This document shows positions 2,498 to 27,597 of a stretch of DNA of 35,164 nt, one piece after another. Source of the DNA: Pseudomonadota bacterium (GTDB taxonomy: Bacteria; Pseudomonadota; Alphaproteobacteria; HIMB59; GCA-002718135). Each line of letters opens with the position of its first letter. Positions within the stretch are counted from its first letter, which is position 1. The position numbers were made by a program, and so were the translations under genes. The stretch lies in contig JAQBWI010000002.1 of the NCBI GenBank assembly GCA_027625355.1, forward strand, positions 1 to 35,164, in the 5' to 3' direction. A model generated the notes under the pieces. The model was not told the DNA's origin. It worked only from the letters and a program-made list of their open reading frames with translations, and did no database searches.

Positions 2498-3571
2498 TTA
2501 TTTAATTACATTAAGACCGTCAGTTAAATTTATTTTACCAATATTCTTTGCCTTGTTAAATTCCTTAATTCTATCAAATACATCAACATTAATTTGCCTG
2601 TAAATATCAAGTAGATCAATTAACACCCAGTTTTCTCTTATTAGTCCATTTTCAACTCTCCAAAAATCTAAACTACGCATCTCTAAAGGTTGTTTTGATG
2701 GCGCTATGCCCATCCATCCATCATTAGTTATTGTTAATCGCATATTAGGCCAGCCTGTTTCACAAACATAATTTCCTTCATGAATCCAATGCGTCTGTAA
2801 ATCTTCCATACCTTCAAAAGCTAATTTTTCATTTGAGGAACCTCCTTTACGATCCGGCATAGCTCGTAAAAAAGGAATTTGATGCCAATGCCTAAAACCA
2901 GCTATGCCTCTTCCTGTTCCTATTCCTGCTGGTCCATACCAATTAACCTGAGGGTGCCAGTATTTTTCTAATTCCATAATTTTTGGATCGGGATTACTTG
3001 GATGTTTAGATAGACCATGAAGCATATCAATTACATGGTCTAAATTTTTTTTTCCATCACCAGTAATTGTTAAGCCATCACCCGTCATAGGAGACGGTGT
3101 GCATAAAAAAGCACCTAATTGAGGAACCATGGGCCAAGAATTTGCTTGCATCATTAATTCTGGTAAATCCCATATAGATTGCATTTCAGTAATTTGATTA
3201 TCTTCAATTTGAAAAAACTCATGATACCGCATATGAATTAAATTACCAGTTGGCGGGATATCTAAAAAAGGCTTAAGAAAAGTACCCATATAATTACCCA
3301 TGGTACCTATCCACTCTTTTCCTTCAGGTGTTGTTCCCGCCATAACAATCATATCTCTTCTTTCTAGATCAGGGATACTTTCAATTAAGGGCAATAAACA
3401 CTTAGATAATAAATTATCTAATCCATTAAAGGTGCCAAATGGATGACAAAAATGAATTAAAGAATTGTTAGAAAAATATTTTTTTAGAGAATTATTAATT
3501 GAGGCTTGATTGCAAGTTTGAAGAGTCAATTGATAATCAACAAAATATTTTTTTAATTCTTCTGAATTCAT
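2498..3571 (-). CDS. Tandem NTF2/SnoaL-like (predicted ester-cyclase type) protein, function unknown (paralogue A)
   Basis: 357-aa ORF. It shares PDLERRD, TGDG, YWHPxxxWYGPxGIGTxRGxxGF..HHQxPF and LIRENWVxID....I.VDVFD.IK blocks with the ORF at 13426-14517. Its ATG overlaps the SDR stop (TAATG at 3573-3569). It is the last gene of the transporter operon. Confidence 0.6.
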   Translation of the reverse strand: MNSEELKKYFVDYQLTLQTCNQASINNSLKKYFSNNSLIHFCHPFGTFNGLDNLLSKCLLPLIESIPDLERRDMIVMAGTTPEGKEWIGTMGNYMGTFLKPFLDIPPTGNLIHMRYHEFFQIEDNQITEMQSIWDLPELMMQANSWPMVPQLGAFLCTPSPMTGDGLTITGDGKKNLDHVIDMLHGLSKHPSNPDPKIMELEKYWHPQVNWYGPAGIGTGRGIAGFRHWHQIPFLRAMPDRKGGSSNEKLAFEGMEDLQTHWIHEGNYVCETGWPNMRLTITNDGWMGIAPSKQPLEMRSLDFWRVENGLIRENWVLIDLLDIYRQINVDVFDRIKEFNKAKNIGKINLTDGLNVIK

Positions 3572-4338
3572 TATTTTGCTGTCCAGCCACCATCTATAAC
3601 AAGTGATGATCCAGTCATCATAGATGAAGCATTAGAAGCTAAATAGACAACGGAAGTAGCAATATCACTATCTGTTGCTAGTCGCCCTAGTGGAATATTA
3701 TTTAACATTGCTTGTTTAAATTTTTTATCTTTAAAGAAATTTTTTACTAAAGGTGTTTCAACAAATGTTGGGCAGATTGAATTTACTCTTATATTTTTTT
3801 TAGCCAAGTCTAATGCCATACCTCGAGTTAAACCCTCAATACCAAATTTAGTCATATTATAGACACTTCGATTAGGTGCTCCCACCTTACCAAGCTGAGA
3901 GGATATATTTATTATAGATCCACCAATAAATTTTCTATTTTTTGATTTTAACATCACTTTTGCGGCCATTTGAGCAACATGAAAAGCAGCCTTGATGTTT
4001 AAATCTACTACATAATCCATATCTTCTTTTTTAATTTTAGTAAAATGCTCTGGTCGATTGGTTCCAGCATTATTAACTAAAATATCAAGCGAGTTTATTT
4101 TTTTAAAAACTGACTTTACTTCTTCAACATTAGAAACATCACATTCAAAGACAGTACATTTTCTTTTCAATTTATTGATATGCTTTTTAACCTTATTTAA
4201 ATCATTAAGTGTTCGACTTAAAATAATCAGATCTGCTCCTGCTTCAGCAAGAGCAATAGCTGAAGCCTTTCCAATTCCCTTCCCTGCTCCCGTTACTAAG
4301 GCGGTTTTGTTTTTGAATTCAAATTTTTGTAAATACAT
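3571..4338 (-). CDS. Short-chain dehydrogenase/reductase (classical SDR)
   Basis: 255 aa. It has the cofactor motif TGAGKGIGKA, NNAG, and the catalytic Ser...YNMTK (YxxxK). Confidence 0.85.
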   Translation of the reverse strand: MYLQKFEFKNKTALVTGAGKGIGKASAIALAEAGADLIILSRTLNDLNKVKKHINKLKRKCTVFECDVSNVEEVKSVFKKINSLDILVNNAGTNRPEHFTKIKKEDMDYVVDLNIKAAFHVAQMAAKVMLKSKNRKFIGGSIINISSQLGKVGAPNRSVYNMTKFGIEGLTRGMALDLAKKNIRVNSICPTFVETPLVKNFFKDKKFKQAMLNNIPLGRLATDSDIATSVVYLASNASSMMTGSSLVIDGGWTAK

Positions 4339-4363: not shown

Positions 4364-4373
4364 AACTTTGCAA

Positions 4374-5030: not shown

Positions 5031-5031
5031 A

Positions 5032-7184: not shown

Positions 7185-7189
7185 ACAAA

Positions 7190-7226
7190 AATTACCCTCT
7201 ACTGTAATTTAGAGTAGAGGGTAATT
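7190..7226 (-). terminator. Intercistronic stem-loop (14-bp stem, 9-nt loop) plus U-run between the SBP and permease genes; attenuator / RNA-stabiliser type
   Basis: On the minus-strand RNA, AAUUACCCUCUACU (7226-7213) pairs perfectly with AGUAGAGGGUAAUU (7203-7190). It is followed by UUUGU and then the permease AUG (7184). The only SD-like element for the permease (GAGGG) lies inside the 3' arm. Confidence 0.6.
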
Positions 7227-7232
7227 AAATTT

Positions 7233-8447: not shown

Positions 8448-8493
8448 ATGAATTCCTCTATTTATTTAAATATACAATTGATATTACATAAGA

Positions 8494-8534
8494 ATTCAAT
8501 AAAATGAATAATTATTCAATATATTGAATAAAAT
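8494..8534. promoter_or_regulatory. Operator module 1: nested palindromes including the perfect 20-bp TTATTCAATATATTGAATAA (8512-8531)
   Basis: Read directly from the sequence. There is a perfect 20-bp palindrome at 8512-8531, a perfect 14-bp palindrome TGAATAATTATTCA at 8505-8518, and an imperfect ATTCAATAAAATGAAT at 8494-8509. The module sits in the 99-bp divergent gap between the SBP operon and the LacI-family gene. Confidence 0.65.
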
Positions 8535-8546
8535 ATTGGTGGAAAA

Positions 8547-9539
8547 ATGAAAAAAAATGCAACTTCTCAAGAAGTAGCGAAATTAGCTGGAGTTTCTCAA
8601 TCTGCTGTTTCAAGGTGTTTCACAAAAGGTGCCAGTATTTCTAGCAGGACAAAATTAAGAGTTATCGAGGCTGCTAAAAAATTAGGTTACAAACCTCAGT
8701 CCTATTCTACGAGTACTTCTAATTTAGATGAAGGAGGATTGGTCGGAGTAATATTGCCATATATTACTAACAGATATTACCCTGAAGTTTTAATAGAATT
8801 ACATGAGGCACTAAGACATTCAGGATACAGGGTCTTACTAATCACTACAGATGATGGTGAAGAGCTTGATGACAACTTGATACAGCCTTATCTCAAAGAA
8901 AAACTCATTGCTATAGTTTCTGCTACAAAGCCAACAGATTCTTTCGTTGAAAATTGTTTAAATAAGCAGATTCAACTCATTGCCTTTAACAGAAATTGGA
9001 AAATACCAACTTTAAGTTCTGTAACCTGTGATCATAGATACGGAGGGGAGGCGGCTGCTGAACATTTCATTAATAACGGACACACTAAGATTGGAATTAT
9101 AGAAGGCCCAACAGGATCATTTGTGAGTAGCGAGAGATGTAGAGGTTTTAAAAATCCTATAAAAAATTCTAAAAGAATAAAATTATTTTCTGAAAAAGGA
9201 AATTTTACATATGAAGGAGGTTTTGAATCAACAAAAAAACTTTTGGAAAATGATATCACAGCAGTATTTTGTGCTGATGATATAATGGCATTTGGATGTC
9301 TGGATTGCATAAAGCAGCACACAAACTTAAGCGTCCCAAAGCAAATAGAAATTATTGGTTATGATGATATATCAACAGCAAATTGGCACTCCTATAATTT
9401 AACTACAGTAAGACAACCTATTCGAAAAATGTCAAAACTTATTACTCAGATTATTGATGACAATTTAAAAGACCCTGAATTTGAGCCTATTAATTATGTG
9501 ATACAAGGCAAATTTGTTTATCGCAAGACAACAAGATAG
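8547..9539 (+). CDS. LacI-family transcriptional regulator
   Basis: 330 aa. It has the N-terminal HTH ATSQEVAKLAGVSQSAVSRCF followed by a periplasmic-binding-protein-like sugar-binding fold (GYDD near the C-terminus). Confidence 0.9.
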   Translation: MKKNATSQEVAKLAGVSQSAVSRCFTKGASISSRTKLRVIEAAKKLGYKPQSYSTSTSNLDEGGLVGVILPYITNRYYPEVLIELHEALRHSGYRVLLITTDDGEELDDNLIQPYLKEKLIAIVSATKPTDSFVENCLNKQIQLIAFNRNWKIPTLSSVTCDHRYGGEAAAEHFINNGHTKIGIIEGPTGSFVSSERCRGFKNPIKNSKRIKLFSEKGNFTYEGGFESTKKLLENDITAVFCADDIMAFGCLDCIKQHTNLSVPKQIEIIGYDDISTANWHSYNLTTVRQPIRKMSKLITQIIDDNLKDPEFEPINYVIQGKFVYRKTTR

Positions 9540-9542
9540 AAA

Positions 9543-10235
9543 TTGTCTAAAATAATTTTGATTCCAGGATATATGTGTAACAAAACCATTTGGGATGCAC
9601 AAATACCTATTCTAAAAAAAAAATATAGTGTTTCTATTTCTTCTCTTAGGAACATTGCTACAGTAGATGATGCAGTACAAAAAATCATAAACAAAAATAC
9701 AAAAAAATTTTCCGTTATAGGTTTTTCAATGGGTGGATTTATTGCAATAAAATTAGCTATCGAGTATCCTGAAATATTAGATAAATTAGTTTTAATAGGT
9801 ACTAATGCAAGACATATTTCACAAAAAAGAAAGTTGCTTTTAGAAAAGTCATTAACAACTTTAAATAAAAATAACTTTGCAAAATTATTTTATCAAAAAA
9901 ACTATAGTTCCTATTTTTCTGATAAAGATTTGAAAAATACATCATACCAAAATACTGTTTACTCAATGGCTAAACAATTGGGGTATAAAACTTTTTTAAA
10001 TCAAACTAATTTAATTGTAAATAGACCCAATCAACTAACAAAGCTAAATAAGATTGTATCAAAAACTCTTATTATTCGTGGCAAAAACGATAAACTATCC
10101 TCAAATATTATGAACGATGAATTAAATAAGAAAATAAAATATTCAATGTATACAGAAATTAAAAATTCTTCTCATTTTGTAATGATAGAGAAGCCAAAAA
10201 TTTTTAATAAAATTGTTTCTAATTTTTTATCTTAA
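9543..10235 (+). CDS. Small alpha/beta-fold serine hydrolase (esterase/lactonase-type)
   Basis: 230 aa. It has the nucleophile elbow GFSMGG, an acid residue in GKNDKL, and His in SSHFVMIEKP. The start is TTG, 4 nt after the LacI stop. The first beta-strand (IILIPGY) precedes the first in-frame ATG, so the TTG start is needed. Confidence 0.7.
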   Translation: MSKIILIPGYMCNKTIWDAQIPILKKKYSVSISSLRNIATVDDAVQKIINKNTKKFSVIGFSMGGFIAIKLAIEYPEILDKLVLIGTNARHISQKRKLLLEKSLTTLNKNNFAKLFYQKNYSSYFSDKDLKNTSYQNTVYSMAKQLGYKTFLNQTNLIVNRPNQLTKLNKIVSKTLIIRGKNDKLSSNIMNDELNKKIKYSMYTEIKNSSHFVMIEKPKIFNKIVSNFLS

Positions 10236-10236
10236 A

Positions 10237-11367
10237 TCAAATCGTTTTAGATGCTATTTGAGTACCCTTAACTAACGAAACTAGTTTCTCATAACAAATT
10301 TTTTCATCAACTTTTCCAAATCCAGCAAAAGTACTAAAACCACAATCTGTACCAGCCATAATTTGCTCCTTTGGTACAAAAGTAGAAAATTGTTTTAACC
10401 GATCAGCAACAACTTCGGGGTGTTCAACAAAATTTGAAGTTGAGTCAATAACACCAGGCACAATGACTTTATCTTGTGGCAATTTAATCTTTTCAAAAAC
10501 TTTCCATTCATGTGCATGTCTTGGATTTGAAGACTCAATTAATAAATATTTACTTTTTGCCTTAAGTACAATTGGTAAGATTTTTTCCAAACCAATATCA
10601 AAAGTATGAGGTCCCTCATAATTTCCCCAGCAGATATGCATTCTAATTTTGTCATGTGAAACTAATGCCAATGAATGATTAAGAGCTTCAATTTGTTTTT
10701 CAGCCCGCAGCAAAAAACTTTCTTCATCTAATTCTTTAAAACTCATATGCCTTGCTAATGCTAAATCTGGACAATCAACTTGCAAGAATAAATTATTAGA
10801 AGTAATTTGTTGATATTCTTCTGACATAATCACACTAAGCTTATTTAGATACTCGTCATCATTGTTATAAAATTTATTAGGTAAAAAAACATTTATGACT
10901 CCTGGTGAAGCGGCATTCATAAAGCCCTTAGTATGATTATTAGCACTTAAAGCGGAAGATAAATTATTTATATCTTTTAAAAGATCATCATTATTTTTAA
11001 TTGAGAGTTCCCCAGTACAACACGGTCGGGTATAAGTAGGAGTTCCACCACTTTTAGCAATCTTATCTTTATATTCAGGAAATGCATCTAAATCAGCTGG
11101 TGCTCTTCTTTCGCTTTCACCAGAAAAACCATTAATTCTATCTTTAACATATGTAGCATAACTAATTTTACTCATTTCACCATCACTGATAAAATCAATA
11201 CCTATATCAAGTTGTTTTTTGACAACCTCACTTACATTTTTTTTTACAACATTATCAAATTCATTTTCACTAAAACTATCTCCCTTATCTTTTGCAAAAA
11301 GTAATTCTGATAAAGTTTTAGAGCGAGGTAAACTTCCTACATGTGTTGTTAATATTTTCGTGTTCAA
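10237..11367 (-). CDS. Stand-alone MetE catalytic-domain homologue (cobalamin-independent methionine synthase-like, COG0620 type)
   Basis: 376 aa. It has the N-terminal THVGSLPR and Zn-ligand-like positions MHICWGN (H-x-C), LIESSN (E) and GTDCGF (C). The start is TTG. It is the last gene of the bicupin operon. Confidence 0.7.
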   Translation of the reverse strand: MNTKILTTHVGSLPRSKTLSELLFAKDKGDSFSENEFDNVVKKNVSEVVKKQLDIGIDFISDGEMSKISYATYVKDRINGFSGESERRAPADLDAFPEYKDKIAKSGGTPTYTRPCCTGELSIKNNDDLLKDINNLSSALSANNHTKGFMNAASPGVINVFLPNKFYNNDDEYLNKLSVIMSEEYQQITSNNLFLQVDCPDLALARHMSFKELDEESFLLRAEKQIEALNHSLALVSHDKIRMHICWGNYEGPHTFDIGLEKILPIVLKAKSKYLLIESSNPRHAHEWKVFEKIKLPQDKVIVPGVIDSTSNFVEHPEVVADRLKQFSTFVPKEQIMAGTDCGFSTFAGFGKVDEKICYEKLVSLVKGTQIASKTI

Positions 11368-11374
11368 TCTTTAG

Positions 11375-12346
11375 CTATCCTGTTTTCATCAGAATTTGTT
11401 TCCAAATTTCAGTTTCATCAAATAAAATCCATTCATTTTTAATGCCTCGTGGTCCAAATTCAACATGAGATATAGCCATAATATGAACTTCTGCTTGACT
11501 AGGCACTCCAAAATATCCCGAACCAGAATGAACACCATTAAGCGACCATCTGATAGCTGCCTTTCTGTACTGATTTGGTTCATCTAAATAACTCACATGA
11601 TCAACTGAAAATGTTGCATCAGGAAATGATGAAAATAAAGAAGTCCAAAAAGTTTTTACTTCTTCAACTCCGTAAGCTTTTAATCCTCCTGGTAATTCTT
11701 GATTTATTGCCCTATCATATTTTTTATCAACTATATTGATATCTTTATTAAATATAGATTTTAAAACTTCTGCATATTCATAACCTGAGTTTTTTTCAGG
11801 TAAATTTAATTGTGAATATTTTAAATCCAAAGGTGTGTTTTTGTTAAAAGGAACTGCACAATTTTCAATACCCCCTTGATTATCAATTATTTGTTTTGCA
11901 TATTTTTTTGGATCTAAATTAAGTTGTCTTACAATTGCACCCTGATCTCTAACAAGCCATTCATCATACACTTGATTATCCTTGCATGCACAATCTGCAA
12001 TTACTCTATAAATAAGTTTTGCTCCTGTTGCTTTTCCATAAACTCCATCTTTCAAGTGAGTTGCTCTAGTTAAAATTCGATGCGATGATAAATACCCATC
12101 GTTTTCATTACCTATCCATATGACATCTTCACCTAAGAGTTGACGGTCAGGGAATTCTTCTAAAGTTGCATAAGTTGCTTTTACAACTACATCAGGTCCA
12201 TATACAACTCCAGCAGGGGACCTAACTGGAATTCCTTTTGCGTAATATTCTCTTATTGACTCAACATCCTTGTCTTCCCAAATCTGATAAGTAATTTTTA
12301 AAATATAATCAGGTAGATCTCTAAATTTTTGATCAAAACCCTTCAT
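11375..12346 (-). CDS. Tandem NTF2/SnoaL-like (predicted ester-cyclase) protein, function unknown (paralogue B)
   Basis: 323 aa with two SnoaL-like halves (ITYQIWEDKDVESIREYY...FPDRQLLGEDVI and VKTFWTSLFSSFPDATFSVDHV). It is more distant from paralogues A and C. Confidence 0.6.
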   Translation of the reverse strand: MKGFDQKFRDLPDYILKITYQIWEDKDVESIREYYAKGIPVRSPAGVVYGPDVVVKATYATLEEFPDRQLLGEDVIWIGNENDGYLSSHRILTRATHLKDGVYGKATGAKLIYRVIADCACKDNQVYDEWLVRDQGAIVRQLNLDPKKYAKQIIDNQGGIENCAVPFNKNTPLDLKYSQLNLPEKNSGYEYAEVLKSIFNKDINIVDKKYDRAINQELPGGLKAYGVEEVKTFWTSLFSSFPDATFSVDHVSYLDEPNQYRKAAIRWSLNGVHSGSGYFGVPSQAEVHIMAISHVEFGPRGIKNEWILFDETEIWKQILMKTG

Positions 12347-12349
12347 CTT

Positions 12350-13321
12350 TTAATTTTTTTGGCGCACTATATAAATGCTACCTTTATCGCCACTTATATT
12401 TTTAAGGCTTCTTGTAGAGTTTTTTGGAGAGGAGAACGCATCTCTAGGTCCAATTAACACTTTTTTATCATTACATGTAATTTCCCATTCTCCATCCAAA
12501 CATAAATAAACTTCAGATTTTGATGAGGTGTAAGGATGAATATGTGCATTACTACCTTCAAGTAGAGTAAGCCCAAATCCAGTTTTATGACTAATATATG
12601 GTTTAAACTCTTTATTATGAATAGTAAAATCATCTAAATAATTTAAAATAGAATTTGAATTATAATGTTCGTCATCTAGAAAATAATTTTTTTGATCTGC
12701 ATATCGAATTACAAATTTTTCAATTTCTTCAGAAGTATAATGATCAAATTGTGTTAATTCATTATCTGTGATTGGCTCTATAGCTTTTTTACCAACAGGT
12801 ATTTGATTTTTTTCTAAATCAATAAGAGAGTTATCACTTAAAAGAACCATTCCAGTTTCTTTCGCTTTTTTTAACAATGAAGGAGTCCATGTAATTACTC
12901 CCGGATCATTTTCACCTAAAACTACAAACATTAATGCTTGTTGATCACTGACATTTTGGAATCCTCTAAACATATTAGTAGGAAATGAAGCAACATCTCC
13001 TTTATGTAGAATAACCTCACCCTCTTTTCCATCTGATCCCCAATAAAAACGCCACGAACCAGAAAAAATAATAAATACCTCAGCTGTTGTATGACTATGA
13101 AGCCCAGAACCATTCATAGGTGCAGCACTTACTGCCCCAATATTAAACCCATGTTCCTCGGCAATTTTTACATTTTGTTTAGAATCTTCACTTACCCCAG
13201 GTCCCACTAATGAGTAATTCAATCTATCCTGATGTCCTTTTAACTTACCCTCAACAAATGGAACTTTACTTGGTATTAACTCATTAAATCTTGCTACACG
13301 TGTTTCTAAATCTGTTGACAT
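12350..13321 (-). CDS. Bicupin protein (two cupin barrels), function unknown
   Basis: 323 aa. Domain 1 has HSHTTAEVFIIFSG (HxH-x3-E-x6-G). Domain 2 has HIHPYTSSKSEVYLCLDG (HxH-x7-E-x6-G). Both motif-2 regions read P-x-N-x2-R-x3-N (PTNMFRGFQN, PKNSTRSLKN). Confidence 0.7.
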   Translation of the reverse strand: MSTDLETRVARFNELIPSKVPFVEGKLKGHQDRLNYSLVGPGVSEDSKQNVKIAEEHGFNIGAVSAAPMNGSGLHSHTTAEVFIIFSGSWRFYWGSDGKEGEVILHKGDVASFPTNMFRGFQNVSDQQALMFVVLGENDPGVITWTPSLLKKAKETGMVLLSDNSLIDLEKNQIPVGKKAIEPITDNELTQFDHYTSEEIEKFVIRYADQKNYFLDDEHYNSNSILNYLDDFTIHNKEFKPYISHKTGFGLTLLEGSNAHIHPYTSSKSEVYLCLDGEWEITCNDKKVLIGPRDAFSSPKNSTRSLKNISGDKGSIYIVRQKN

Positions 13322-13340
13322 TTCTTTAAAATTATATTTT

Positions 13341-13392
13341 ATTCATTTTTATTGAATAATATTCAAAATATTGAATAAATCAATTCAATATT
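13341..13392. promoter_or_regulatory. Operator module 2: array of TTGAATA/TATTCAA half-sites collinear with module 1
   Basis: TTGAATA-A-TATTCAA is a perfect 15-bp palindrome (13352-13366). TATTCAAAATATTGAATA (13360-13377) differs from the module-1 core by one base. AATATTGAAT-N6-ATTCAATATT (13367-13392) has 10-bp arms. The array lies in the 104-bp divergent gap between the bicupin operon and the NTF2/HisD-like operon. Confidence 0.65.
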
Positions 13393-13425
13393 ATCTCGAC
13401 ATGTGAGTAACTAAATTGATAAAAT

Positions 13426-14517
13426 ATGACAAAAATCGAAAATTTTAAAACCAGCATCCAAGCTAATGATGATGCTGAAATTATAAATATCGAACCTAAA
13501 AGAAACTTAGAGAATAAAAAAAAAATTAGGATATTTTTAAAAAATATTGCTGAATCAAATCTACAAAACTTAGAGCAAAATTTAAGAAATGCATATCATG
13601 AAAATGCAGAAGTGCGAGCATTTCATCCAATAAATGACATAAAGGGGATTGATGAAATAAAAGATAAATTATGGACACCTCTTTTAAAATCTTTTCCAGA
13701 TTTAGAGAGAAGAGATAATTTAATAATTGGCGGAAGTTTTCAAAATAAAATTTTTGTTTCTATTGTTTCTCATTTAACTGGTACATTCAAAAACTCATGG
13801 TTAAATGTGCCTTCCCATAATAAAACAATTCATCTGAGAATTTGTGAAGCTCACGAAATTCAGGATCAAAAAATTATTCGCTCCCATATCCTAATTGACA
13901 CATTAGATTTCATTCGTCAGGCAGGCTTCTGGCCAATAAAAAAATCATTAGGTGTAGAGGGAGTGTGGCCTGGTCCAATTACAGGGGATGGAACAACATT
14001 TGAAAATCATGATCAAGAATTATCAAAACTTTCAATGGATCAATCACTTACGATGCAGAGAAGTTTAAATGTTAAACCAGAAACAGATCCTGGTTCAACA
14101 CATGAATATATTAGAGATAAATTACTAAATCACCCCCAAAAAGAATATTGGCATCCTAAAATGATGTGGTACGGACCTTGCGGTATTGGTACAGCAAGAG
14201 GATTGGAAGGATTTGTTGATCATCATCAATTACCTTTCAGACTTACATTCAAAGAGAGAGATTACTGGAAAATTGGTCATTATATTGAAATAGCTGATGG
14301 TAATTATTCAATGACATCAGGTTGGCATAGTATTGAGTGTATACATGGTTCAAGTGAGTGGCTTGGATATGAAGCAACAAATAAATCAGTAACAATGAGA
14401 GTTATGGATTTCTATTTACATCATGAAGGTTTGATAAGAGAAAATTGGGTCCCAATAGACATAGCTCATATCTTAAATCAAATAGGTATAGATGTTTTTG
14501 ATCTAATAAAAAAATAA
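13426..14517 (+). CDS. Tandem NTF2/SnoaL-like protein, function unknown (paralogue C)
   Basis: 363 aa. It is a clear paralogue of 2498-3571, sharing PDLERRD, ITGDG, YWHPKMMWYGPCGIGTARGLEGF..HHQLPF and LIRENWVPID...IGIDVFDLIK. Confidence 0.6.
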   Translation: MTKIENFKTSIQANDDAEIINIEPKRNLENKKKIRIFLKNIAESNLQNLEQNLRNAYHENAEVRAFHPINDIKGIDEIKDKLWTPLLKSFPDLERRDNLIIGGSFQNKIFVSIVSHLTGTFKNSWLNVPSHNKTIHLRICEAHEIQDQKIIRSHILIDTLDFIRQAGFWPIKKSLGVEGVWPGPITGDGTTFENHDQELSKLSMDQSLTMQRSLNVKPETDPGSTHEYIRDKLLNHPQKEYWHPKMMWYGPCGIGTARGLEGFVDHHQLPFRLTFKERDYWKIGHYIEIADGNYSMTSGWHSIECIHGSSEWLGYEATNKSVTMRVMDFYLHHEGLIRENWVPIDIAHILNQIGIDVFDLIKK

Positions 14518-14578: not shown

Positions 14579-15865
14579 ATGACAATTTCATATATCAAAA
14601 AAGCAAATAAAACTGCCTCTTCTGATGAGGTTGAAACGAGACAACGAGTTCAAGAAGTTCTCAATGAAATAGAATCTAAAAGAGACAAAGGTATTAAAGA
14701 AATTTCTCGCAAGTTTGATAAATATGAAGGTGATGTTATTGTTACCCAAGAAAAAATTGAAGAAGTAATAAAATCATTAGATCAAAAAGTAAAAGATGAT
14801 GTGCAGTTCTCCTATGATAGAGTTCGTAGTTTTGCAGAGCATCAACTAAAACATTTGAATAATGATTTTGAAGTTGAATTATCTCCAGGTCTTTTTGCTG
14901 GTCAAAAGTTAATACCTGTTAATAGTGTTGGTTGTTATGTTCCTGGTGGAAGATATAATAATATTGCCTCCGCTATAATGAGTATTACTACAGCAAAAGT
15001 TGCAGGTGTCAAAAATGTTATTGCTGCTAGTCCTCCAAAAGATGAAAATGGTGCTAATCGTATTATTATTTACACTGCAAATTTATGTGGAGCTGATGTC
15101 ATTATGAACTGTGGTGGTATTGGAGCGATTGGTGCTTTTGCTTATGGATGTTTTGGTAATCCAGAAGTTGATATGATTGTTGGTCCAGGAAATCAATACG
15201 TAGCAGAGGCAAAGAGAATTTTATATGGAAAAGTTGGAATTGATTTATTTGCAGGGCCAACAGAAATTGGCATTATTGCAGATCATACTGCTGATAAAGA
15301 AATGATTGCTGTTGATCTTGTTGGTCAAGCAGAGCACGGTCCAAATTCTCCAGCTTGGCTTTATACAACTGACAAAGAATTGTGTGATTATGTCATGAAG
15401 CGAGTTCCAGAATTAATCGCTGAACTACCTGAAACATCAAGAAATAACGCTGATGCTGCTTGGCGTGATTACGGTGAAGTTATTCTATGCGATACGAATG
15501 AAGAATTATGTGAGATCAGTGATAACTATGCTCCTGAACATTTAGAAGTTCAAGCTGAAAACTTAGATTGGTGGCTTGATAAACTAAAAAATTATGGATC
15601 ATTATTTTTAGGTGAAGAAACAACTGTTGCCTATGGTGATAAATGCTCTGGTACAAATCATATACTACCCACAAAAGGTGCTGCTAAATATACAGGCGGT
15701 TTATTTGTAGGTAAGTTTATTAAAACTGTTACTTTTCAACGCATGACCAAAGAATCAAACAAGGAAGTGGGCGCAGCCGCAGCAAGAATTTCAAGATTGG
15801 AAGGAATGGAAGCACATGCGCGAACAGGTGATGCTCGTTTAAGAAAATATGGTTTTCAAAATTAG
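14579..15865 (+). CDS. Histidinol-dehydrogenase-family NAD-dependent 4-electron alcohol dehydrogenase (catabolic paralogue, possibly HpsN-like)
   Basis: 428 aa with HisD-family blocks VPGG, GPGNQYVAEAK, GQAEHGPNS, APEHLEV and SGTNHILPT. It has a GAGGA SD. The context is not a his operon. Confidence 0.8.
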   Translation: MTISYIKKANKTASSDEVETRQRVQEVLNEIESKRDKGIKEISRKFDKYEGDVIVTQEKIEEVIKSLDQKVKDDVQFSYDRVRSFAEHQLKHLNNDFEVELSPGLFAGQKLIPVNSVGCYVPGGRYNNIASAIMSITTAKVAGVKNVIAASPPKDENGANRIIIYTANLCGADVIMNCGGIGAIGAFAYGCFGNPEVDMIVGPGNQYVAEAKRILYGKVGIDLFAGPTEIGIIADHTADKEMIAVDLVGQAEHGPNSPAWLYTTDKELCDYVMKRVPELIAELPETSRNNADAAWRDYGEVILCDTNEELCEISDNYAPEHLEVQAENLDWWLDKLKNYGSLFLGEETTVAYGDKCSGTNHILPTKGAAKYTGGLFVGKFIKTVTFQRMTKESNKEVGAAAARISRLEGMEAHARTGDARLRKYGFQN

Positions 15866-17736
15866 ATAATTTTCTTTGATTGTAAAAAATTAATAATCTG
15901 ATCAGTTAACTCTTCCGCATTACTTGATGTAGTATCTAAAATAAGATCAGGATTTTCTGGCTCTTCATATAAAGAGTCTATACCTGTAAAGTTTTTTAAT
16001 TCACCTGCTCTTGCTTTTTTATAAAGTCCTTTTGGATCTCTCTTTTCACATTCTTCTAATGGTGTGTTTACAAAAATTTCAAAAAACTCATCTGAAGATA
16101 ATAAATCTCTAGCCATTTGTCTTTCTGATTTGAAAGGTGAAATAAATGAAACCAATGTTATTAATCCAGCATCAGCCATTAGCTTTGATACTTCTGCAAC
16201 ACGACGAATATTTTCTACCCTATCAGGGTCTGTGAAACCTAAATCCTTATTCAATCCATGACGAACGTTATCACCATCTAATAAATAAGTTCTCTTGCCT
16301 ATAGTGTGTAATTTTTGTTCTAAAATATTAGCAATTGTTGATTTACCAGAACCTGATAATCCGGTAAACCACACAACACATGGCTTTTGAGAATTTAACT
16401 CAGATCGAGTTTTCTTATTGATTGACATTTTGTGCCAAGAAATATTGCTAGATCGACGAAGAGCGTGATCAATCATGCCAACCCCAATTGTTTTATTATT
16501 ATAAGGATCAATTATAACAAAGCTTCCCAACTTTTGATTGTTAGAGTACGAACTAATAGCATGCGTTTTATTAATGGCGACTTTACAATAAGCAATATCA
16601 TTTAAATTTAGTTTTTTAGAGGCCACTTCTTCGTAAGAATTAACATTTATACTGTGCACTAAATCAGTTATTTTTCCATTAATGTAAGCGTTATTAAAAC
16701 GAAAAATATAATTTCTCTCAGGCAACATTGGCTCTTGATCCATCCAAATTAAATGGGAGGCAAACTGATCTGCCTTTATTATCTGATCATTTTTTTTTGA
16801 AAGAATAACATCTCCTCGTGAAATATCTAATTCGTCACTTAAAGTTAATGTAATTGCTTGTCCGGAGTATGCTTCACTTAATTCTCCTTTAGGTCCGTAG
16901 ATATTTTTCACTGAAGTTAGCGTATTACTGGATGCAGTGGTTATTAAATCACCTCTTGCAATTTTACCATCAGCTATCGTACCTGAATAACCTCTGAAAT
17001 TTGCACTTGATCTATTTACCCATTGGACTGGGAAACTTAATTCATTGTTTTGGCTTGAATCCAAAACATCGACTTTTTCTAATGTTTCAATTAATGTTAA
17101 TCCCTTATACCATTTCGTATTTTCAAAATTTGAAAATACATTATCCCCTTTTAAGGCTGACAATGGAATAAAATTTATAGATGTAAAAGTAAAATTTTTA
17201 ATTAATTCCTTATACTCATCAACAATTCTCTCAAAAATATTTTCTTTATAATTAACTAGATCCATCTTATTTATTGCAACTACAATATGTTTAATGCCCA
17301 AAAGATTAACAATAAAACTATGTCTTTTTGTTTGCTCTAATAATCCTTTTTCTGCATCTATTAATATTATCGCCACATCAGAATTTGAGGCTCCCGTTGC
17401 CATATTCCGTGTATATTGTTCGTGACCAGGTGTATCGGCAATGATAAATTTACAATTTGATGTTTCAAAATAACGATACGCTACATCTATAGTAATTCCC
17501 TGTTCCCGCTCTGCTTGTAAGCCATCAACAAGTAAAGCTAGATCAATTTCTTTACCTTGAGTTCCATATTTTTCACTTTCTATTTTTGTCTGATCTATCT
17601 GATCTAGAAAAATATTTTGAGAATCAAATAGCAATCTTCCTAATAAAGTAGATTTTCCATCATCAACCGAACCACAGGTTAAAATTTTAACTTGTTTTTT
17701 TTTATTTTGAGCTTGAAAGAATTTATTTAAATCCAC
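15862..17736 (-). CDS. cysNC: Bifunctional sulfate adenylyltransferase subunit 1 / adenylylsulfate (APS) kinase
   Basis: 624 aa. The GTPase motifs are GSVDDGKST, DTPGHEQY and NKMD. The C-terminal APS kinase has the P-loop GLSGSGKST and LDGDNVRHGLN. The GTG start overlaps the cysD stop by 1 nt. Confidence 0.9.
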   Translation of the reverse strand: MDLNKFFQAQNKKKQVKILTCGSVDDGKSTLLGRLLFDSQNIFLDQIDQTKIESEKYGTQGKEIDLALLVDGLQAEREQGITIDVAYRYFETSNCKFIIADTPGHEQYTRNMATGASNSDVAIILIDAEKGLLEQTKRHSFIVNLLGIKHIVVAINKMDLVNYKENIFERIVDEYKELIKNFTFTSINFIPLSALKGDNVFSNFENTKWYKGLTLIETLEKVDVLDSSQNNELSFPVQWVNRSSANFRGYSGTIADGKIARGDLITTASSNTLTSVKNIYGPKGELSEAYSGQAITLTLSDELDISRGDVILSKKNDQIIKADQFASHLIWMDQEPMLPERNYIFRFNNAYINGKITDLVHSINVNSYEEVASKKLNLNDIAYCKVAINKTHAISSYSNNQKLGSFVIIDPYNNKTIGVGMIDHALRRSSNISWHKMSINKKTRSELNSQKPCVVWFTGLSGSGKSTIANILEQKLHTIGKRTYLLDGDNVRHGLNKDLGFTDPDRVENIRRVAEVSKLMADAGLITLVSFISPFKSERQMARDLLSSDEFFEIFVNTPLEECEKRDPKGLYKKARAGELKNFTGIDSLYEEPENPDLILDTTSSNAEELTDQIINFLQSKKII

Positions 17737-24163: not shown

Positions 24164-25762
24164 ATGGATGTGTTTGATTATATAATAATTGGTGCAGGCT
24201 CAGCTGGTTGTGTTCTTGCAAATAGGCTTAGTGAAAATTCTAAACACAAAGTACTTTTATTAGAAGCAGGAGGTAAGGATACTTACCCATGGATTCATAT
24301 TCCTGTTGGGTATTACAAAACAATGCATAATCCAAAAACAGATTGGTGCTTTAAAACAGAGCCTGATGAAAATTTAAATGGAAGATCAATAAATTATCCA
24401 CGAGGTAAAACTTTGGGAGGTAGTTCTTCAATTAATGGACTTCTATATATCAGAGGTCAATCGCGTGATTATGATATTTGGCGTCAACAAGGTAATACTG
24501 GATGGGGGTGGGATGATGTTCTTCCTTACTTTCTTAAATCGGAAAATCAAGAAAGAGGAGCAAATGAATTCCATGGTGTGGGTGGACCCTTGTCAGTTTC
24601 TGATATTAGAGTTAAACTAGATATTTTAGATGAGTTTCAAAAAGCTGCAGCGGAAATAGGCATTCCTAAAACTAACGATTTTAATACAGGTGATAATTTT
24701 GGCTGTGATTATTTTCAAGTAACTGAAAAAAATGGTTTACGATGTAGTACAGCTGTTGCTTATCTCAATCCCGCCAAAAAAAGATCAAATTTAAAAGTTG
24801 AAGTAAAAGCTCATGTTAAGCAAATAAATTTTGATGGTAAAAAAGCTATTGGCATTTCTTATTGGAAAAATGATGAGTTAATTACCGTAAAAGGTAATAA
24901 AGAAGTTATTTTATCTGCAGGATCAATTGGGTCCCCTCATATTTTACAAACATCTGGCATTGGTGATGAAAAAAAACTAAGAAATTTAGGTGTGCCTGTA
25001 ATTCATCATAACGCTAACATTGGTAAAAACTTACAAGATCACTTAATGTTACGTCCAGTCTATAAAGTAAAGAATATCAAAACTTTAAATAAAACTATCA
25101 ATAGTTTTTTTGGAAAAATGATGATTGGAATGGAATTTGTTTTTTTTAGAAGAGGTGTCATGACCATGGGTGCAAGTCAATTATGTGGATTTGCTAAAAG
25201 TGATGAAAGCCGAGAAACTCCAAATTTGCAATTTCATGTTCAGCCAATTAGTACCGACAGGTTGGGTGGAGCTAATCTTCATAATTTTAATGCCTTTACA
25301 CCAACAGTTGCAAATATTAGACCAACCAGCAGAGGGGAAGTATATATCACCTCAAAAGATAGTCGGGATTATCCAAAAATTAAAATGAATTATCTATCTA
25401 CTGATGATGACCGGCAAGTATCTGCAGCAGGTATAAAATTGGTTAGAAAAATTATTTTTGAAAGTGAAACATTTAAGAAATATGAGCCAGAAGAATTTAG
25501 ACCAGGAATAAATAATCAAAGTGATGATGAAATAATTCAAGCAGCAAGTGAGCATGCGCAAACAATTTTTCATCCTGTTGGAACTTGTAAGATGGGGAAT
25601 GACAGCAATTCAGTAGTTAGTGACAAACTAAAAGTTCATGATATTGAAAACTTACGTGTTGTTGATGCTTCCATTATGCCAAATATAACTTCCGGCAATA
25701 CTAATGCTCCAACAATTATGATCGCGGAAAAAGCTGCAGATTTGATCATTGCTGATCAGTAA
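24164..25762 (+). CDS. GMC-family FAD oxidoreductase (choline/alcohol dehydrogenase-like)
   Basis: 532 aa. It has the N-terminal FAD fold DYIIIGAGSAGCVLANRLSE, the GMC signature region GGSSSINGLLYIRG, and the C-terminal catalytic region HPVGTCKMG...DASIMP. Confidence 0.9.
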   Translation: MDVFDYIIIGAGSAGCVLANRLSENSKHKVLLLEAGGKDTYPWIHIPVGYYKTMHNPKTDWCFKTEPDENLNGRSINYPRGKTLGGSSSINGLLYIRGQSRDYDIWRQQGNTGWGWDDVLPYFLKSENQERGANEFHGVGGPLSVSDIRVKLDILDEFQKAAAEIGIPKTNDFNTGDNFGCDYFQVTEKNGLRCSTAVAYLNPAKKRSNLKVEVKAHVKQINFDGKKAIGISYWKNDELITVKGNKEVILSAGSIGSPHILQTSGIGDEKKLRNLGVPVIHHNANIGKNLQDHLMLRPVYKVKNIKTLNKTINSFFGKMMIGMEFVFFRRGVMTMGASQLCGFAKSDESRETPNLQFHVQPISTDRLGGANLHNFNAFTPTVANIRPTSRGEVYITSKDSRDYPKIKMNYLSTDDDRQVSAAGIKLVRKIIFESETFKKYEPEEFRPGINNQSDDEIIQAASEHAQTIFHPVGTCKMGNDSNSVVSDKLKVHDIENLRVVDASIMPNITSGNTNAPTIMIAEKAADLIIADQ

Positions 25763-25764
25763 AT

Positions 25765-27534
25765 TTATTGAACGACTGTATCCCTACTATCAATACCAGC
25801 AACTTCGACAGGTGCTTTCATAGCATCTCTTCTAAATGGCTCACCTAATTCTTGATTTAGGATAACTTCAATAAAAGTTGTTACACCATTCATTTGATCC
25901 ACGCATGATGTTTTAAGCGCTTCTGTCAACTCTGATTGAGTTGTAACTTTAACTCCTTTAAATCCACACGCTTCTGCTATCTTTGCATAACTTAATTTTG
26001 GATCAAGCTCTGTTCCTATAAAATTATTATCATACCAAAGAGTTGTGTTTCTCTTCTCTGCTCCCCATTGATAATTTCGAAATATAACCATCGTGATATT
26101 TGGCCATTCTTCTCGGCTGCATGATGTCATTTCACTCATACTAATTCCAAAAGCACCATCTCCAGAAAAACCAACTACAGGCGTGTCAGGACATCCAATT
26201 TTTGCTCCTAAAACTGAAGGAAAGCCATATCCACATGGTCCAAATAAACCTGGGGCTAAATATTTTCTTCCCTGTTCAAATGTAGGGTATGCATTTCCAA
26301 TGGCACAGTTATTACCAATATCGCTAGAGATAATTGCATTATCTGGTAATCCGGCTTGAATAGCTCTCCACGCCATACGAGGTGACATTCTATCTGGATC
26401 TCTTTCTCGAGAATCTTTATTCCAAGATGTTCCTTCATCATCTTCTTCATGATCAAGACTTGTTAATGTTTGAAGCCACGCAGACTTAGTTTGATGTATT
26501 AATGCTTTTCTGTCTTCTCTTCCTTCATCACCAGCACTAGATGATAATTTGTTTAAAATTTGTTCAGCAACTAACTTAGCATCACCACAAATTCCTACTG
26601 ATATTTTTTTTGCTAAACCTATTCTATCTGAATTAATATCAACCTGAATAATCTTTGCCTCTTTTGGCCAGTAATCAATTCCATATCCAGGTAAAGTAGA
26701 GAATGGATTTAATCTTGTTCCCAAAGCAAGAACAACATCAGCTTTTGAGATAATTTCCATCGCAGCTTTAGAGCCATTATAGCCAAGAGGACCAACAGCT
26801 AAAGGATGCTTTCCTGGAAAGCTATCATTATGTTGATATCCACAGGCCACTGGAGCATCTAGTTTTTCAGCAATTTTTTTACAGTCTTCAATTGCGTCAG
26901 CAAGAACAACACCAGCACCTGATAATATTACTGGAAATTTTGCATTCGATAAAAGATTCGCAGCTTCACTTATTGCTGCTGAACCCCCAGCAGGTCTTTC
27001 GAATTCTATAATAGAAGGTAATTCAATATCTACTACTTGCGTCCAAAAATCTCTTGGTACATTTATTTGAGCAGGAGCTGAACCTCTCTTTGCTTTCAAA
27101 ATTACTCTATTTAATACTTCAGCCATTCTTGATGCGTCACGAACCTCTTCTTGATAACAAACCATGTCTTTAAATAAGTTCATTTGTTCAACTTCTTGAA
27201 AACCGCCTTGACCCATTGTTTTATTTGCTGCTTGAGGTGTAACTAAAAGCATTGGCGTGTGATTCCAATATGCTGTTTTAATAGGTGTTACTAAACCAGT
27301 AATCCCAGGACCATTTTGCGCTATACACATCGACATTTTTCCAGTTGATCTTGTATATCCATCGGCAATTAATCCACCATTCGACTCATGAGCAACATCC
27401 CAGAAAGTAATACCAGCTTTAGGAAAAAGATCTGAAATTGGCATAAAAGCTGAGCCAATTATTCCAAAAGAATGTTGAATTCCGTGCATTTGTAGAACTT
27501 TTACAAAAGCTTCCTCAGTAGTCATTTTAGCCAT
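25765..27534 (-). CDS. xsc: Sulfoacetaldehyde acetyltransferase (thiamine-diphosphate enzyme)
   Basis: The N-terminus MAKMTTEEAFVKVLQMHGIQHSFGIIGSAFMPISD matches Xsc N-termini as I remember them. The TPP motif is GDGAFG...N. The ORF-track start (27540) is TTG. I prefer the ATG at 27534, which has GGAG 8 nt upstream. Confidence 0.8.
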   Translation of the reverse strand: MAKMTTEEAFVKVLQMHGIQHSFGIIGSAFMPISDLFPKAGITFWDVAHESNGGLIADGYTRSTGKMSMCIAQNGPGITGLVTPIKTAYWNHTPMLLVTPQAANKTMGQGGFQEVEQMNLFKDMVCYQEEVRDASRMAEVLNRVILKAKRGSAPAQINVPRDFWTQVVDIELPSIIEFERPAGGSAAISEAANLLSNAKFPVILSGAGVVLADAIEDCKKIAEKLDAPVACGYQHNDSFPGKHPLAVGPLGYNGSKAAMEIISKADVVLALGTRLNPFSTLPGYGIDYWPKEAKIIQVDINSDRIGLAKKISVGICGDAKLVAEQILNKLSSSAGDEGREDRKALIHQTKSAWLQTLTSLDHEEDDEGTSWNKDSRERDPDRMSPRMAWRAIQAGLPDNAIISSDIGNNCAIGNAYPTFEQGRKYLAPGLFGPCGYGFPSVLGAKIGCPDTPVVGFSGDGAFGISMSEMTSCSREEWPNITMVIFRNYQWGAEKRNTTLWYDNNFIGTELDPKLSYAKIAEACGFKGVKVTTQSELTEALKTSCVDQMNGVTTFIEVILNQELGEPFRRDAMKAPVEVAGIDSRDTVVQ

Positions 27535-27597
27535 CTTCAAATCTCCAATTAATATATTATGTTAATTATTTAGACTTATTTATTTAAATTCAAATTT

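What the first reader, a model, noticed from the sequence alone, without database searches (positions are those of the whole stretch)
14579..15865. HisD-family dehydrogenase in a catabolic context: candidate HpsN-like enzyme linking the island to xsc (DHPS/sulfonate hypothesis)
HisD catalytic blocks are intact (GQAEHGPNS, APEHLEV, SGTNHILPT), so a 4-electron oxidation of a primary alcohol to an acid is expected. The gene is the second cistron of an operator-controlled unit with no his genes nearby. Established knowledge: HpsN, the (R)-2,3-dihydroxypropane-1-sulfonate (DHPS) dehydrogenase, is a HisD-family paralogue. HpsO and HpsP are SDRs. C2/C3 sulfonate degradation can converge on sulfoacetaldehyde acetyltransferase (Xsc). 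The window contains an SDR (3571-4338) and xsc (25765-27534). Its importer belongs to the CUT1 family, which includes the glycerol-3-phosphate system UgpBAE, and DHPS is the sulfonate isostere of glycerol-3-phosphate. I see no sulfolactate dehydrogenase, sulfopyruvate decarboxylase (ComDE) or sulfolactate sulfo-lyase (SuyAB). If DHPS is the substrate, the middle steps would have to be done by the unassigned bicupin, NTF2 and MetE-like proteins, which would be new chemistry.
Basis: partly seen in the sequence, partly recalled or inferred. Interest (0 to 1): 0.6.

Follow-up and report, generated by a model that had tools for sequence, protein, structure and literature searches.

The report
HpsN-type dehydrogenase lacking its sulfonate histidine
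The gene encodes a real relative of the enzyme that marine bacteria use to oxidise the algal sulfonate DHPS, not a histidine-biosynthesis enzyme, but it lacks the histidine that holds the sulfonate and was swapped in for a different family member, so calling it a DHPS enzyme is plausible but unproven.

Summary
The ORF at 14579-15865 is real and intact. It is a HisD-fold enzyme that belongs to the HpsN clade (DHPS/sulfopropanediol 3-dehydrogenase), not to housekeeping HisD. It is 56-57% identical to characterised-type HpsN and 32-34% to HisD, and the predicted fold matches CpHpsN at TM 0.95. The N-terminus of a separate housekeeping hisD sits at the end of contig C126 of the same genome.

- The family-defining loop G-R-Y-A/S-H reads G-R-Y-N-N, so the sulfonate- and zinc-binding His126 is Asn. 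This His-less subtype is conserved in 65 sequences and is nested inside SAR11-type hpsN.
- In this order (HIMB59/AEGEAN-169), the slot after the SnoaL gene normally holds a different HisD-family paralogue ("type B", 46-50% identical). Our gene replaced it as a cassette with its own 70-nt leader. It also persists, under purifying selection, in relatives that have lost the island.

The island with type B also occurs in a sister genus where neither Xsc nor ComD was found. The canonical middle steps (ComDE) are on another contig of this genome. The "island enzymes do new chemistry toward Xsc" idea is therefore not supported.

Earlier runs of this scan flagged His-less HpsN-like genes on other DNA.

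The parts
14579..15865 (+). HpsN-clade (His126-less, 'N-N' subtype) HisD-fold dehydrogenase, 428 aa
   Evidence: 522 bits to CpHpsN 8v35, at most 250 bits to HisD; tree; TM 0.95 to 9cp7.
14948..14962 (+). Codons for residues 124-128, G-R-Y-N-N. This is the position of the HpsN signature loop G-R-Y-A/S-H, so His126 of CpHpsN is Asn128 here.
   Evidence: Alignments. The motif definition comes from PMC11382572.
14510..14578 (+). Leader of about 70 nt that travels with the gene. It is nearly identical in genomes with the island (G081) and without it (G079). It holds no island operator half-site.
13426..14517 (+). Tandem-SnoaL gene ('SnoaL_C'). In most relatives it is followed by the type-B HisD paralogue rather than by this gene.
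13322..13425 (.). Divergent control region of the island, with TTGAATA/TATTCAA-type palindromes.
   Evidence: Earlier notes e1-4765625 and e1-4765624 read these as LacI operators.
3571..4338 (-). SDR. It stays as the divergent neighbour of this gene in island-less relatives (89% identical in G079). It is not an HpsO orthologue (28-31% identical).
25765..27540 (-). xsc, sulfoacetaldehyde acetyltransferase
   Evidence: TIGR03457 946 bits; NF005713 1027 bits.
24164..25762 (+). GMC oxidoreductase next to xsc. By position it is a candidate isethionate dehydrogenase. Relatives carry a TRAP transporter beside it; the window does not.
   Evidence: The isethionate reading is an inference from known ise clusters.
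15862..17736 (-). cysNC, the fixed right-hand flank of the gene in every arrangement seen in this genus

Best explanation
The gene encodes an NAD+- and divalent-metal-dependent dehydrogenase of the SAR11-type HpsN clade, a subtype in which the loop G-R-Y-A/S-H has become G-R-Y-N-N.

Shown by homology: it keeps every catalytic and zinc residue. It should therefore carry out the family's four-electron oxidation of a primary alcohol, next to a C2-OH or C2-NH2, to a carboxylate.

Inferred: the substrate is a small C3 sulfonate alcohol. Candidates are R-DHPS (giving sulfolactate), L-cysteinolate (giving cysteate) or a close analogue. The product would pass through sulfopyruvate to sulfopyruvate decarboxylase ComDE (contig C5). 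It would then go to Xsc (window) and phosphotransacetylase (contig C82).

History: the His-less subtype arose once inside SAR11 (Pelagibacteraceae) hpsN. It was probably transferred into about 15 species of this HIMB59/AEGEAN-169-order lineage. There it replaced, as a cassette with its own leader, the type-B HisD paralogue that normally ends the SnoaL/bicupin island.
For: Family placement:
- phmmer gives 522 and 507 bits to solved HpsN (8v35, 8wwe) against at most 250 bits to HisD.
- The AF2 model (pLDDT 91) matches closed CpHpsN complexes at TM 0.95, rmsd 1.6 A, 56% identity.
- In trees it sits inside the clade of CpHpsN and Roseobacter-type HpsN (SH-aLRT 98-100). Within that clade it falls in a SAR11-type subclade; the His-less group is nested there with support 96-98.

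Residues:
- Zinc ligands Gln/His (QAEHG), Asp352 and His411, catalytic Glu318-His319, NAD-specifying Asp46, and the sulfonate-binding Lys353 (GDK, against GDY in HisD) are all kept (roles from PMC11382572).
- It keeps 18 of 23 columns that are specific to His-bearing HpsN, and only 1 of 41 type-B-specific columns.

Context:
- In the 50 N-N loci and 19 of 20 His-type loci of Pelagibacteraceae examined, the orthologous gene lies next to pta.
- In genomes G079 and G011 of this genus, the gene and the SDR lie beside pta, a class-III aminotransferase and alanine dehydrogenase, with no island.
- No bicupin or SnoaL_C was found anywhere in G079, G011 or G036. The gene still shows purifying selection there: 160 synonymous against 30 non-synonymous codon differences between G079 and G011.
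- The own genome has ComD above cut-off and ComE 0.1 bit below its cut-off (221.4 against 221.5), plus xsc, pta, tpa and ald.

Experiment on a relative: a SAR11 enzyme of this clade, HTCC1002 'CuHpsN' (57% identical to RpHpsN), oxidised R-DHPS stereospecifically in vitro (PMC11131964).
Against: - His126, described as conserved in all HpsN homologues and as the residue that recognises the sulfonate, is Asn. The neighbouring Ala/Ser is also Asn. This holds in all 65 sequences of the subtype, which points to changed substrate or metal handling.
- The only SAR11-clade enzyme assayed still has the His (inferred). It had Km 106 mM for R-DHPS and only 2.2-fold preference over histidinol.
- The gene and type B were never found in the same genome: 0 of 15 type-A genomes hold type B, although about 110 of 187 genomes in the order do. 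It also sits in type B's slot, so it may do type B's unknown job.
- There is no HpsO or HpsP partner.
- The TRAP transporter that relatives keep beside xsc is absent from the window's syntenic site and was not found in this 64%-complete assembly.
- No sulfolactate dehydrogenase has been proven. The candidates are a D-2-hydroxyacid dehydrogenase beside ComDE and an FMN-type homologue on C2.
Confidence: 0.5

Rival explanations
1. The enzyme is functionally interchangeable with the island's type-B HisD paralogue. It oxidises an intermediate of the still unknown, probably non-DHPS, substrate of the SnoaL/bicupin/MetE-like island. Loss of His126 marks its recruitment away from free DHPS.
For: - It occupies exactly type B's position after SnoaL_C. 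In 10 of 13 loci of this genus the island carries it in place of type B.
- Types A and B were never found together.
- Type B also lacks the His (G-K-F-P-M) while keeping Lys353.
- In Pelagibacteraceae no second match reached E 1e-100, the level at which type B scores. The single HpsN-clade gene often lies beside the SnoaL/bicupin module.
- The type-B island exists in Rhizobiales plasmids at 77% identity, and in a genus where neither Xsc nor ComD was found.
Against: - There is no convergence on type B: it shares 1 of 41 type-B signature columns but keeps 18 of 23 HpsN ones.
- The gene persists intact and under purifying selection where the island is gone.
- Its most constant neighbour across two orders is pta, not the island.
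Confidence: 0.3
2. DHPS enters through the island's CUT1 transporter and is oxidised by this enzyme. The bicupin, NTF2 and MetE-like proteins then carry the product to sulfoacetaldehyde for Xsc by new chemistry.
For: The gene, the island and xsc share one 35-kb window. The classical hps clusters fetched also have LacI-family regulators.
Against: - The canonical middle enzymes ComDE are in the genome, so no new chemistry is needed.
- The island occurs where Xsc and ComD were not found in any of 71 genomes.
- The binding protein comes in two forms, about 40% identical, that do not track the dehydrogenase type.
- xsc is 10 kb away behind unrelated genes and has its own GMC partner.
Confidence: 0.07
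3. It is the housekeeping histidinol dehydrogenase.
For: It is the only full PF00815 gene in this 64%-complete assembly. It passes the TIGR00069 cut-off.
Against: - It is 32-34% identical to the housekeeping HisD of relatives, which carry both genes.
- It has GDK where HisD has GDY.
- The first 48 residues of the true hisD are at the end of contig C126, behind the same two upstream genes as in relatives.
Confidence: 0.01

Closest known systems
HpsN, (R)-DHPS 3-dehydrogenase / sulfopropanediol 3-dehydrogenase (EC 1.1.1.308): Cupriavidus pinatubonensis (PDB 8v35, 9cp7) and Ruegeria pomeroyi (8wwe)
   Same: Same fold (TM 0.95). 56-57% identity to the C. pinatubonensis and Leisingera (Roseobacter) HpsN sequences fetched here. 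Same zinc ligands, Glu-His catalytic pair, NAD-specifying Asp and sulfonate-binding Lys353. Same clade in trees.
   Different: The signature loop G-R-Y-A/S-H reads G-R-Y-N-N, so His126 is missing. There is no adjacent hpsO or hpsP, and no TRAP or MFS DHPS transporter. It sits after a SnoaL gene in an island of unknown function.
SAR11 (Pelagibacteraceae) hpsN, e.g. 'CuHpsN' of Ca. Pelagibacter ubique HTCC1002, assayed by Liu et al. 2024 (PMC11131964)
   Same: Nearest relatives, at 72-74% identity. The His-less subtype is nested within them. A His-less copy in Pelagibacteraceae is 80-84% identical and lies in the same regulator-SBF-pta-hpsN position.
   Different: Most SAR11 copies keep G-R-Y-A-H, including the one in the 1,308,759-bp genome. 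I take that genome to be HTCC1062 by its size alone. Per that paper's supplement, SAR11 has a SuyB homologue (66-68% identical) and no ComDE, whereas this genome has ComDE and only a 28-32% SuyB-like protein.
L-cysteinolate dehydrogenase ('HpsN' of Bilophila sp. 4_1_30; PMC12814064)
   Same: Same clade and chemistry. It shows that HpsN-type pockets accept the 2-amino analogue.
   Different: The paper reports that the Bilophila enzyme has the same substrate-binding residues as CpHpsN, and it sits with cuyABC genes. No CuyA search was run here.
'Type B' HisD-family paralogue of the SnoaL/bicupin/CUT1 island (uncharacterised; HIMB59 order, Martelella, Sinorhizobium medicae plasmids)
   Same: Same genomic slot, same GDK pair, also lacks His126, and the two are mutually exclusive.
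   Different: Only 46-50% identical, in a separate well-supported clade, with loop G-K-F-P-M. The two share 1 of 41 signature columns.
Histidinol dehydrogenase HisD (EC 1.1.1.23)
   Same: Same fold and catalytic machinery.
   Different: 32-34% identity, GDY instead of GDK, and a different loop (G-S/R-A-x-Y). A separate copy exists in this genome.

Membership tests
HpsN (DHPS 3-dehydrogenase) | HisD fold (PF00815), closest in structure to solved HpsN | tested here: met
   PF00815 scores 448.8 bits. The AF2 model best matches 9cp7/9cp9 (TM 0.95); HisD structures reach TM 0.90 at most.
HpsN (DHPS 3-dehydrogenase) | Zinc ligands Gln248, His251, Asp352 and His411*, and catalytic Glu318-His319 (CpHpsN numbering) | tested here: met
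   All are conserved in the alignment. Their roles come from PMC11382572.
HpsN (DHPS 3-dehydrogenase) | Lys353 contacting the sulfonate (G-D-K, where HisD has G-D-Y) | tested here: met
   The protein reads GDKCSG.
HpsN (DHPS 3-dehydrogenase) | Signature loop G-R-Y-A/S-H, whose terminal His126 binds zinc at rest and the sulfonate in the complex | tested here: not met
   The loop reads G-R-Y-N-N (residues 124-128) in all 65 sequences of this subtype. One relative (G031) reads G-R-N-N-Y.
HpsN (DHPS 3-dehydrogenase) | Phylogenetic placement with biochemically characterised HpsN, apart from HisD | tested here: met
   Quick ML trees give SH-aLRT 98-100 for the HpsN clade. The His-less group is nested in SAR11-type HpsN.
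HpsN (DHPS 3-dehydrogenase) | Gene neighbourhood with hpsO/hpsP and a DHPS transporter (hpsKLM or hpsU) | tested here: not met
   The SDR is 28-31% identical to HpsO. There is no HpsP. The TRAP system present beside xsc in relatives is absent here.
HpsN (DHPS 3-dehydrogenase) | NAD+-dependent oxidation of R-DHPS to R-sulfolactate with sub- to low-millimolar Km | not testable with these tools
   Only an assay can tell. The nearest assayed relative (HTCC1002) had Km 106 mM.
Housekeeping HisD | G-D-Y pair, HisD-type loop, and being the genome's only copy | tested here: not met
   The protein has GDK. It is 32-34% identical to the relatives' HisD. A separate hisD N-terminus lies at the end of C126.
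Type-B island paralogue | Loop G-K-F-P-M and 41 clade-specific columns | tested here: not met
   It shares 1 of 41 columns and is 46-50% identical.

The most novel reading that the evidence does not exclude
Loss of His126 marks a real change of substrate. On this reading the His-less HpsN and the type-B paralogue are interchangeable entry enzymes of a widespread, undescribed pathway (tandem-SnoaL, bicupin and MetE-like enzymes) that acts on a DHPS-like diol moiety of a larger or different metabolite. A sizeable share of the 'hpsN' reads counted in ocean surveys, from part of SAR11 and from AEGEAN-169, would then not report DHPS oxidation.
Probability: 0.25. Interest if true: 0.65.

Novelty: new variant of a known kind. 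Interest (0 to 1): 0.45.

Why it matters
hpsN is used as a marker gene for DHPS turnover, a major carbon and sulfur currency between phytoplankton and bacteria. This subtype is abundant. More than 100 near-identical proteins (97% identity or more) were returned from metagenomes. It occurs in about a tenth of the Pelagibacteraceae species genomes that carry an HpsN-clade gene, and in AEGEAN-169 relatives.

If the His-less enzyme still oxidises DHPS, the 'defining' histidine is dispensable, and this AEGEAN-169 genus joins the DHPS consumers through a ComDE-Xsc route. If it does not, marker-based budgets overcount. Either way, the in-situ swap between two HisD-family paralogues gives a natural experiment for working out the substrate of a widespread orphan catabolic island.

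Tried and rejected
1. I first thought the assayed SAR11 'CuHpsN' was a promiscuous housekeeping HisD because of its 106 mM Km. Rejected: the paper's supplement gives 57% identity to RpHpsN. The 1,308,759-bp genome has a single HpsN-clade gene with G-R-Y-A-H next to pta.
2. From the first 80 loci I read a clean split: His-type with TRAP and hpsP, against N-N type with pta and SnoaL. Rejected after sampling 20 more genomes. Most His-type SAR11 genes are also next to pta, and one also lies beside the SnoaL module.
3. The island SDR as HpsO. Rejected at 28-31% identity.
4. Convergence of the N-N subtype on type B. Not seen.
5. A SuyAB route in this genome. The best SuyB-like hit is 28-32% identical in a 477-513-aa frame, probably another UxaA-family dehydratase.
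6. An island operator upstream of the gene. None found.
7. Literature searches found no substrate for the SnoaL/bicupin/HisD-like island and no mention of sulfonate metabolism in AEGEAN-169.
8. The first tree run did not finish its careful search. All trees are quick searches with SH-aLRT support only. One row (L107) was frameshifted and distorted the tree, so it was left out.

Full report
**Observation.** It scores 448.8 bits on PF00815 and 436.7 bits on TIGR00069. Its surroundings are as described.
- Upstream lies an island at 2498-14517: three tandem-SnoaL proteins, an SDR, a HAD protein, a CUT1-type binding protein with two permeases, a LacI regulator, an alpha/beta hydrolase, a MetE-like protein and a bicupin.
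- Downstream lie convergent cysNC-cysD-cysQ, a Rieske/OYE pair, a GMC oxidoreductase and a true xsc (TIGR03457, 946 bits).

**What the protein is.**
- Against solved structures it scores 522 and 507 bits to HpsN of Cupriavidus pinatubonensis (8v35) and Ruegeria pomeroyi (8wwe). It scores 250 bits or less to any HisD.
- An AF2 model (pLDDT 91.2) best matches the closed CpHpsN complexes 9cp7 and 9cp9 at TM 0.95, rmsd 1.6 A and 56% identity.
- JGI already labels near-identical metagenomic proteins as sulfopropanediol 3-dehydrogenase.
- In a tree of 87 family members, the HisD family splits by the pair after the zinc-binding Asp. HisD has G-D-Y. A well-supported clade has G-D-K, where Lys353 contacts the sulfonate in CpHpsN (PMC11382572). 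Our protein lies in the subclade that holds CpHpsN and a Roseobacter HpsN (SH-aLRT 98).

**Housekeeping hisD.**
- The 64%-complete assembly has only this full PF00815 gene.
- Same-genus relatives usually carry two: one of about 510 bits (housekeeping, 32-34% identical to ours) and one of about 445 bits.
- In the own genome, the two genes that precede housekeeping hisD in relatives lie on contig C126. The last 150 nt of that contig encode the first 48 residues of a housekeeping-type HisD.

**The missing histidine.**
- The structural paper defines HpsN against HisD by the loop G-R-Y-A/S-H. His126 is the axial zinc ligand at rest and hydrogen-bonds the sulfonate in the product complex. The paper reports it as conserved among HpsN homologues.
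- Here the loop is G-R-Y-N-N (residues 124-128). All other listed ligands are kept.
- The change is not noise. All 65 sequences of the subtype have it: those of this lineage and about 50 Pelagibacteraceae single-cell genomes at 80-84% identity. The next relatives, at 72-74% identity, have G-R-Y/F-A-H.
- A focused tree puts the His-less group (support 96) inside a SAR11-type HpsN clade (support 100), with a His-bearing SAR11 sequence as sister (support 98). This implies a single loss.
- Of 23 columns conserved only in His-bearing HpsN, the subtype keeps 18. Of 41 type-B-only columns it shares 1.

**Organism.** Record titles of the nearest loci read 'uncultured Alphaproteobacteria AG-447...' and 'HIMB59-LRMED-199'. 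The order's one complete 1.4-Mb genome has only a housekeeping HisD. The Liu et al. supplement likewise lists only a 33% HpsN match for HIMB59. The lineage is therefore the HIMB59/AEGEAN-169 order, not Pelagibacterales proper. The AEGEAN-169 genomics paper does not mention sulfonates.

**A swap at the locus.**
- Across 187 genomes of the order there are three classes: housekeeping HisD, a 'type B' paralogue and our 'type A'.
  - Type B is 46-50% identical to ours, has the loop G-K-F-P-M with G-D-K kept, and occurs in about 110 genomes.
  - Type A occurs in 15 genomes.
- No genome was found with both A and B.
- Type B sits exactly where our gene sits, after SnoaL_C. Genome G006 shares 91-95% identical flanks (cysNC, cysD, OYE) yet has type B.
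- Type B is 77% identical to genes in Martelella and Sinorhizobium medicae plasmids. Those genes lie in islands with the same CUT1 transporter, LacI regulator, bicupin, tandem-SnoaL 'ester cyclase', alpha/beta hydrolase and SDR.
- The binding protein and permeases also come in two forms, about 40% identical, that do not track A or B.
- The roughly 70 nt upstream of type A are nearly identical in genomes with and without the island. They contain no island operator half-site.

**Life without the island.**
- In G079 and G011, type A faces the SDR across a 110-nt spacer and lies beside pta, a class-III aminotransferase and alanine dehydrogenase. G036 shows the same pta, EamA and SDR neighbours. 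This layout looks like an internal deletion of the island.
- No bicupin or SnoaL_C was found anywhere in those three assemblies, which are 66-84% complete.
- The gene stays under purifying selection there: 160 synonymous against 30 non-synonymous codon differences between G079 and G011.

**Link to Xsc.**
- The own genome encodes ComD (155 bits, cut-off 148) and ComE (221.4 bits, cut-off 221.5) on contig C5. They sit among a D-2-hydroxyacid dehydrogenase, a PfkB kinase, an aldose epimerase and an SftI-like sulfoquinovose isomerase fragment.
- pta, a tpa-like aminotransferase and ald are on contig C82.
- In relatives with longer contigs, comD, type A and xsc lie within about 45 kb of one another.
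- A standard route from sulfolactate to acetyl-CoA therefore exists without new chemistry. The sulfolactate dehydrogenase step is only a candidate assignment.
- The island itself is not tied to Xsc. In the sister genus (71 genomes, 11 of them at least 90% complete) neither Xsc nor ComD was found, yet about half carry the island with type B.
- In G085 and G079, xsc's own neighbours are a GMC oxidoreductase and a TRAP transporter 83% identical to the one beside SAR11 hpsN. G081 and G076 have the same TRAP binding-protein gene near xsc. The window lacks that TRAP.

**SAR11 context and published biochemistry.**
- Of 359 Pelagibacteraceae genomes (at least 85% complete), 277 gave exactly one match at E 1e-100 or better. 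About 26 of these are the N-N kind. No genome gave a second match at that threshold, which is where type B would score.
- Both kinds usually sit in a regulator-SBF-pta-hpsN arrangement. Some lie beside a SnoaL/bicupin module, and some His-type copies sit in a TRAP-hpsN-hpsP cluster.
- Liu et al. 2024 assayed the HTCC1002 enzyme, which is 57% identical to RpHpsN. It was R-DHPS-specific but had Km 106 mM and only 2.2-fold better efficiency than with histidinol. I infer, but could not verify by sequence, that this is the His-type gene I see in the 1,308,759-bp genome.
- A Bilophila HpsN prefers L-cysteinolate.

**Verdict.**
- Family and chemistry are secure. This is an HpsN-clade, four-electron alcohol-to-acid dehydrogenase, not HisD.
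- The substrate is open. I put about 0.5 on a C3 sulfonate alcohol (DHPS, cysteinolate or a close analogue) feeding ComDE-Xsc-Pta.
- I put about 0.3 on it doing type B's unknown job in the island.
- It is a new variant of a known kind. Earlier runs of this scan reached similar 'HpsN-like but His-less' readings on other DNA.
- New here are the A/B swap, the island-less survivors, the nesting within SAR11 hpsN, and the ComDE route in the same genome.

Noticed in passing
Own genome contig C5 (locus L044:1-7000); same cluster in G079 (L043:4298-14220): A sulfoquinovose-type sulfoglycolysis cluster is joined to sulfopyruvate decarboxylase. It holds an SftI-like isomerase (NF048012, 227 bits, below cut-off), a Gfo/Idh/MocA oxidoreductase, a D-2-hydroxyacid dehydrogenase, a PfkB kinase, ComE, ComD, an aldose-1-epimerase and an EamA transporter. 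In G079 it also has a DeoC/LacD-type aldolase and a CUT1 ABC transporter. ComD was found in 84 of 104 genomes of this genus and 0 of 71 of the sister genus. I found no paper describing this for AEGEAN-169.
   Followed up: partly
window:24164-27540; relatives L126 and L127: xsc is paired with a GMC oxidoreductase, a candidate isethionate dehydrogenase. In G085 and G079 a TRAP DctPQM system sits between the GMC gene and the Na/Ca-exchanger gene. It is 83/67/82% identical to the one beside SAR11 hpsN. In the window those two genes are only 48 nt apart, so the TRAP is absent.
   Followed up: partly
window:5032-8447 versus L021, L034, L037: The island's binding protein and permeases exist in two forms, about 38-42% and 42-55% identical. 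The enzymes between them stay 70-85% identical. The two forms assort independently of the dehydrogenase type.
   Followed up: partly
L041 (Martelella pMM170) and L125 (Sinorhizobium medicae pSMED01): Rhizobiales plasmids carry the same island architecture with type B at 77% identity to the marine copies. They add an amidase and an RraA-family protein, and in Martelella a second HisD-family gene. That identity is unusually high for such distant hosts.
   Followed up: partly
L038:2029-4695 (G011): In G011 the cysNC-cysD pair next to the gene is replaced by a 619-aa flavoprotein (FAD_binding_2 plus Succ_DH_flav_C) followed by a 156-aa ORF. The pair looks like AprA and AprB (APS reductase), but this was not tested.
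   Followed up: no
L058:4313-6883 (Pelagibacteraceae): In about 15 of the 50 N-N loci of Pelagibacteraceae the SnoaL module is not directly adjacent. In the one such locus examined (L058), an OpuA-type transporter (fused permease plus OpuAC binding protein) lies between the gene and the SnoaL module.
   Followed up: no
G187:C7:25960-27132, G190:C1:62204-63391, G189:C1:144004-145209: In three Pelagibacteraceae genomes the match to the housekeeping HisD is reported with two in-frame TAA stops. I did not check whether this is an artefact of the match running past the gene ends.
   Followed up: no
L036:13571-14854 (G031, another genus of the family): This copy is 83% identical and sits in an island. 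Its loop reads G-R-N-N-Y instead of G-R-Y-N-N, so the His-less loop itself varies. ComD was not found in that 84%-complete genome.
   Followed up: no
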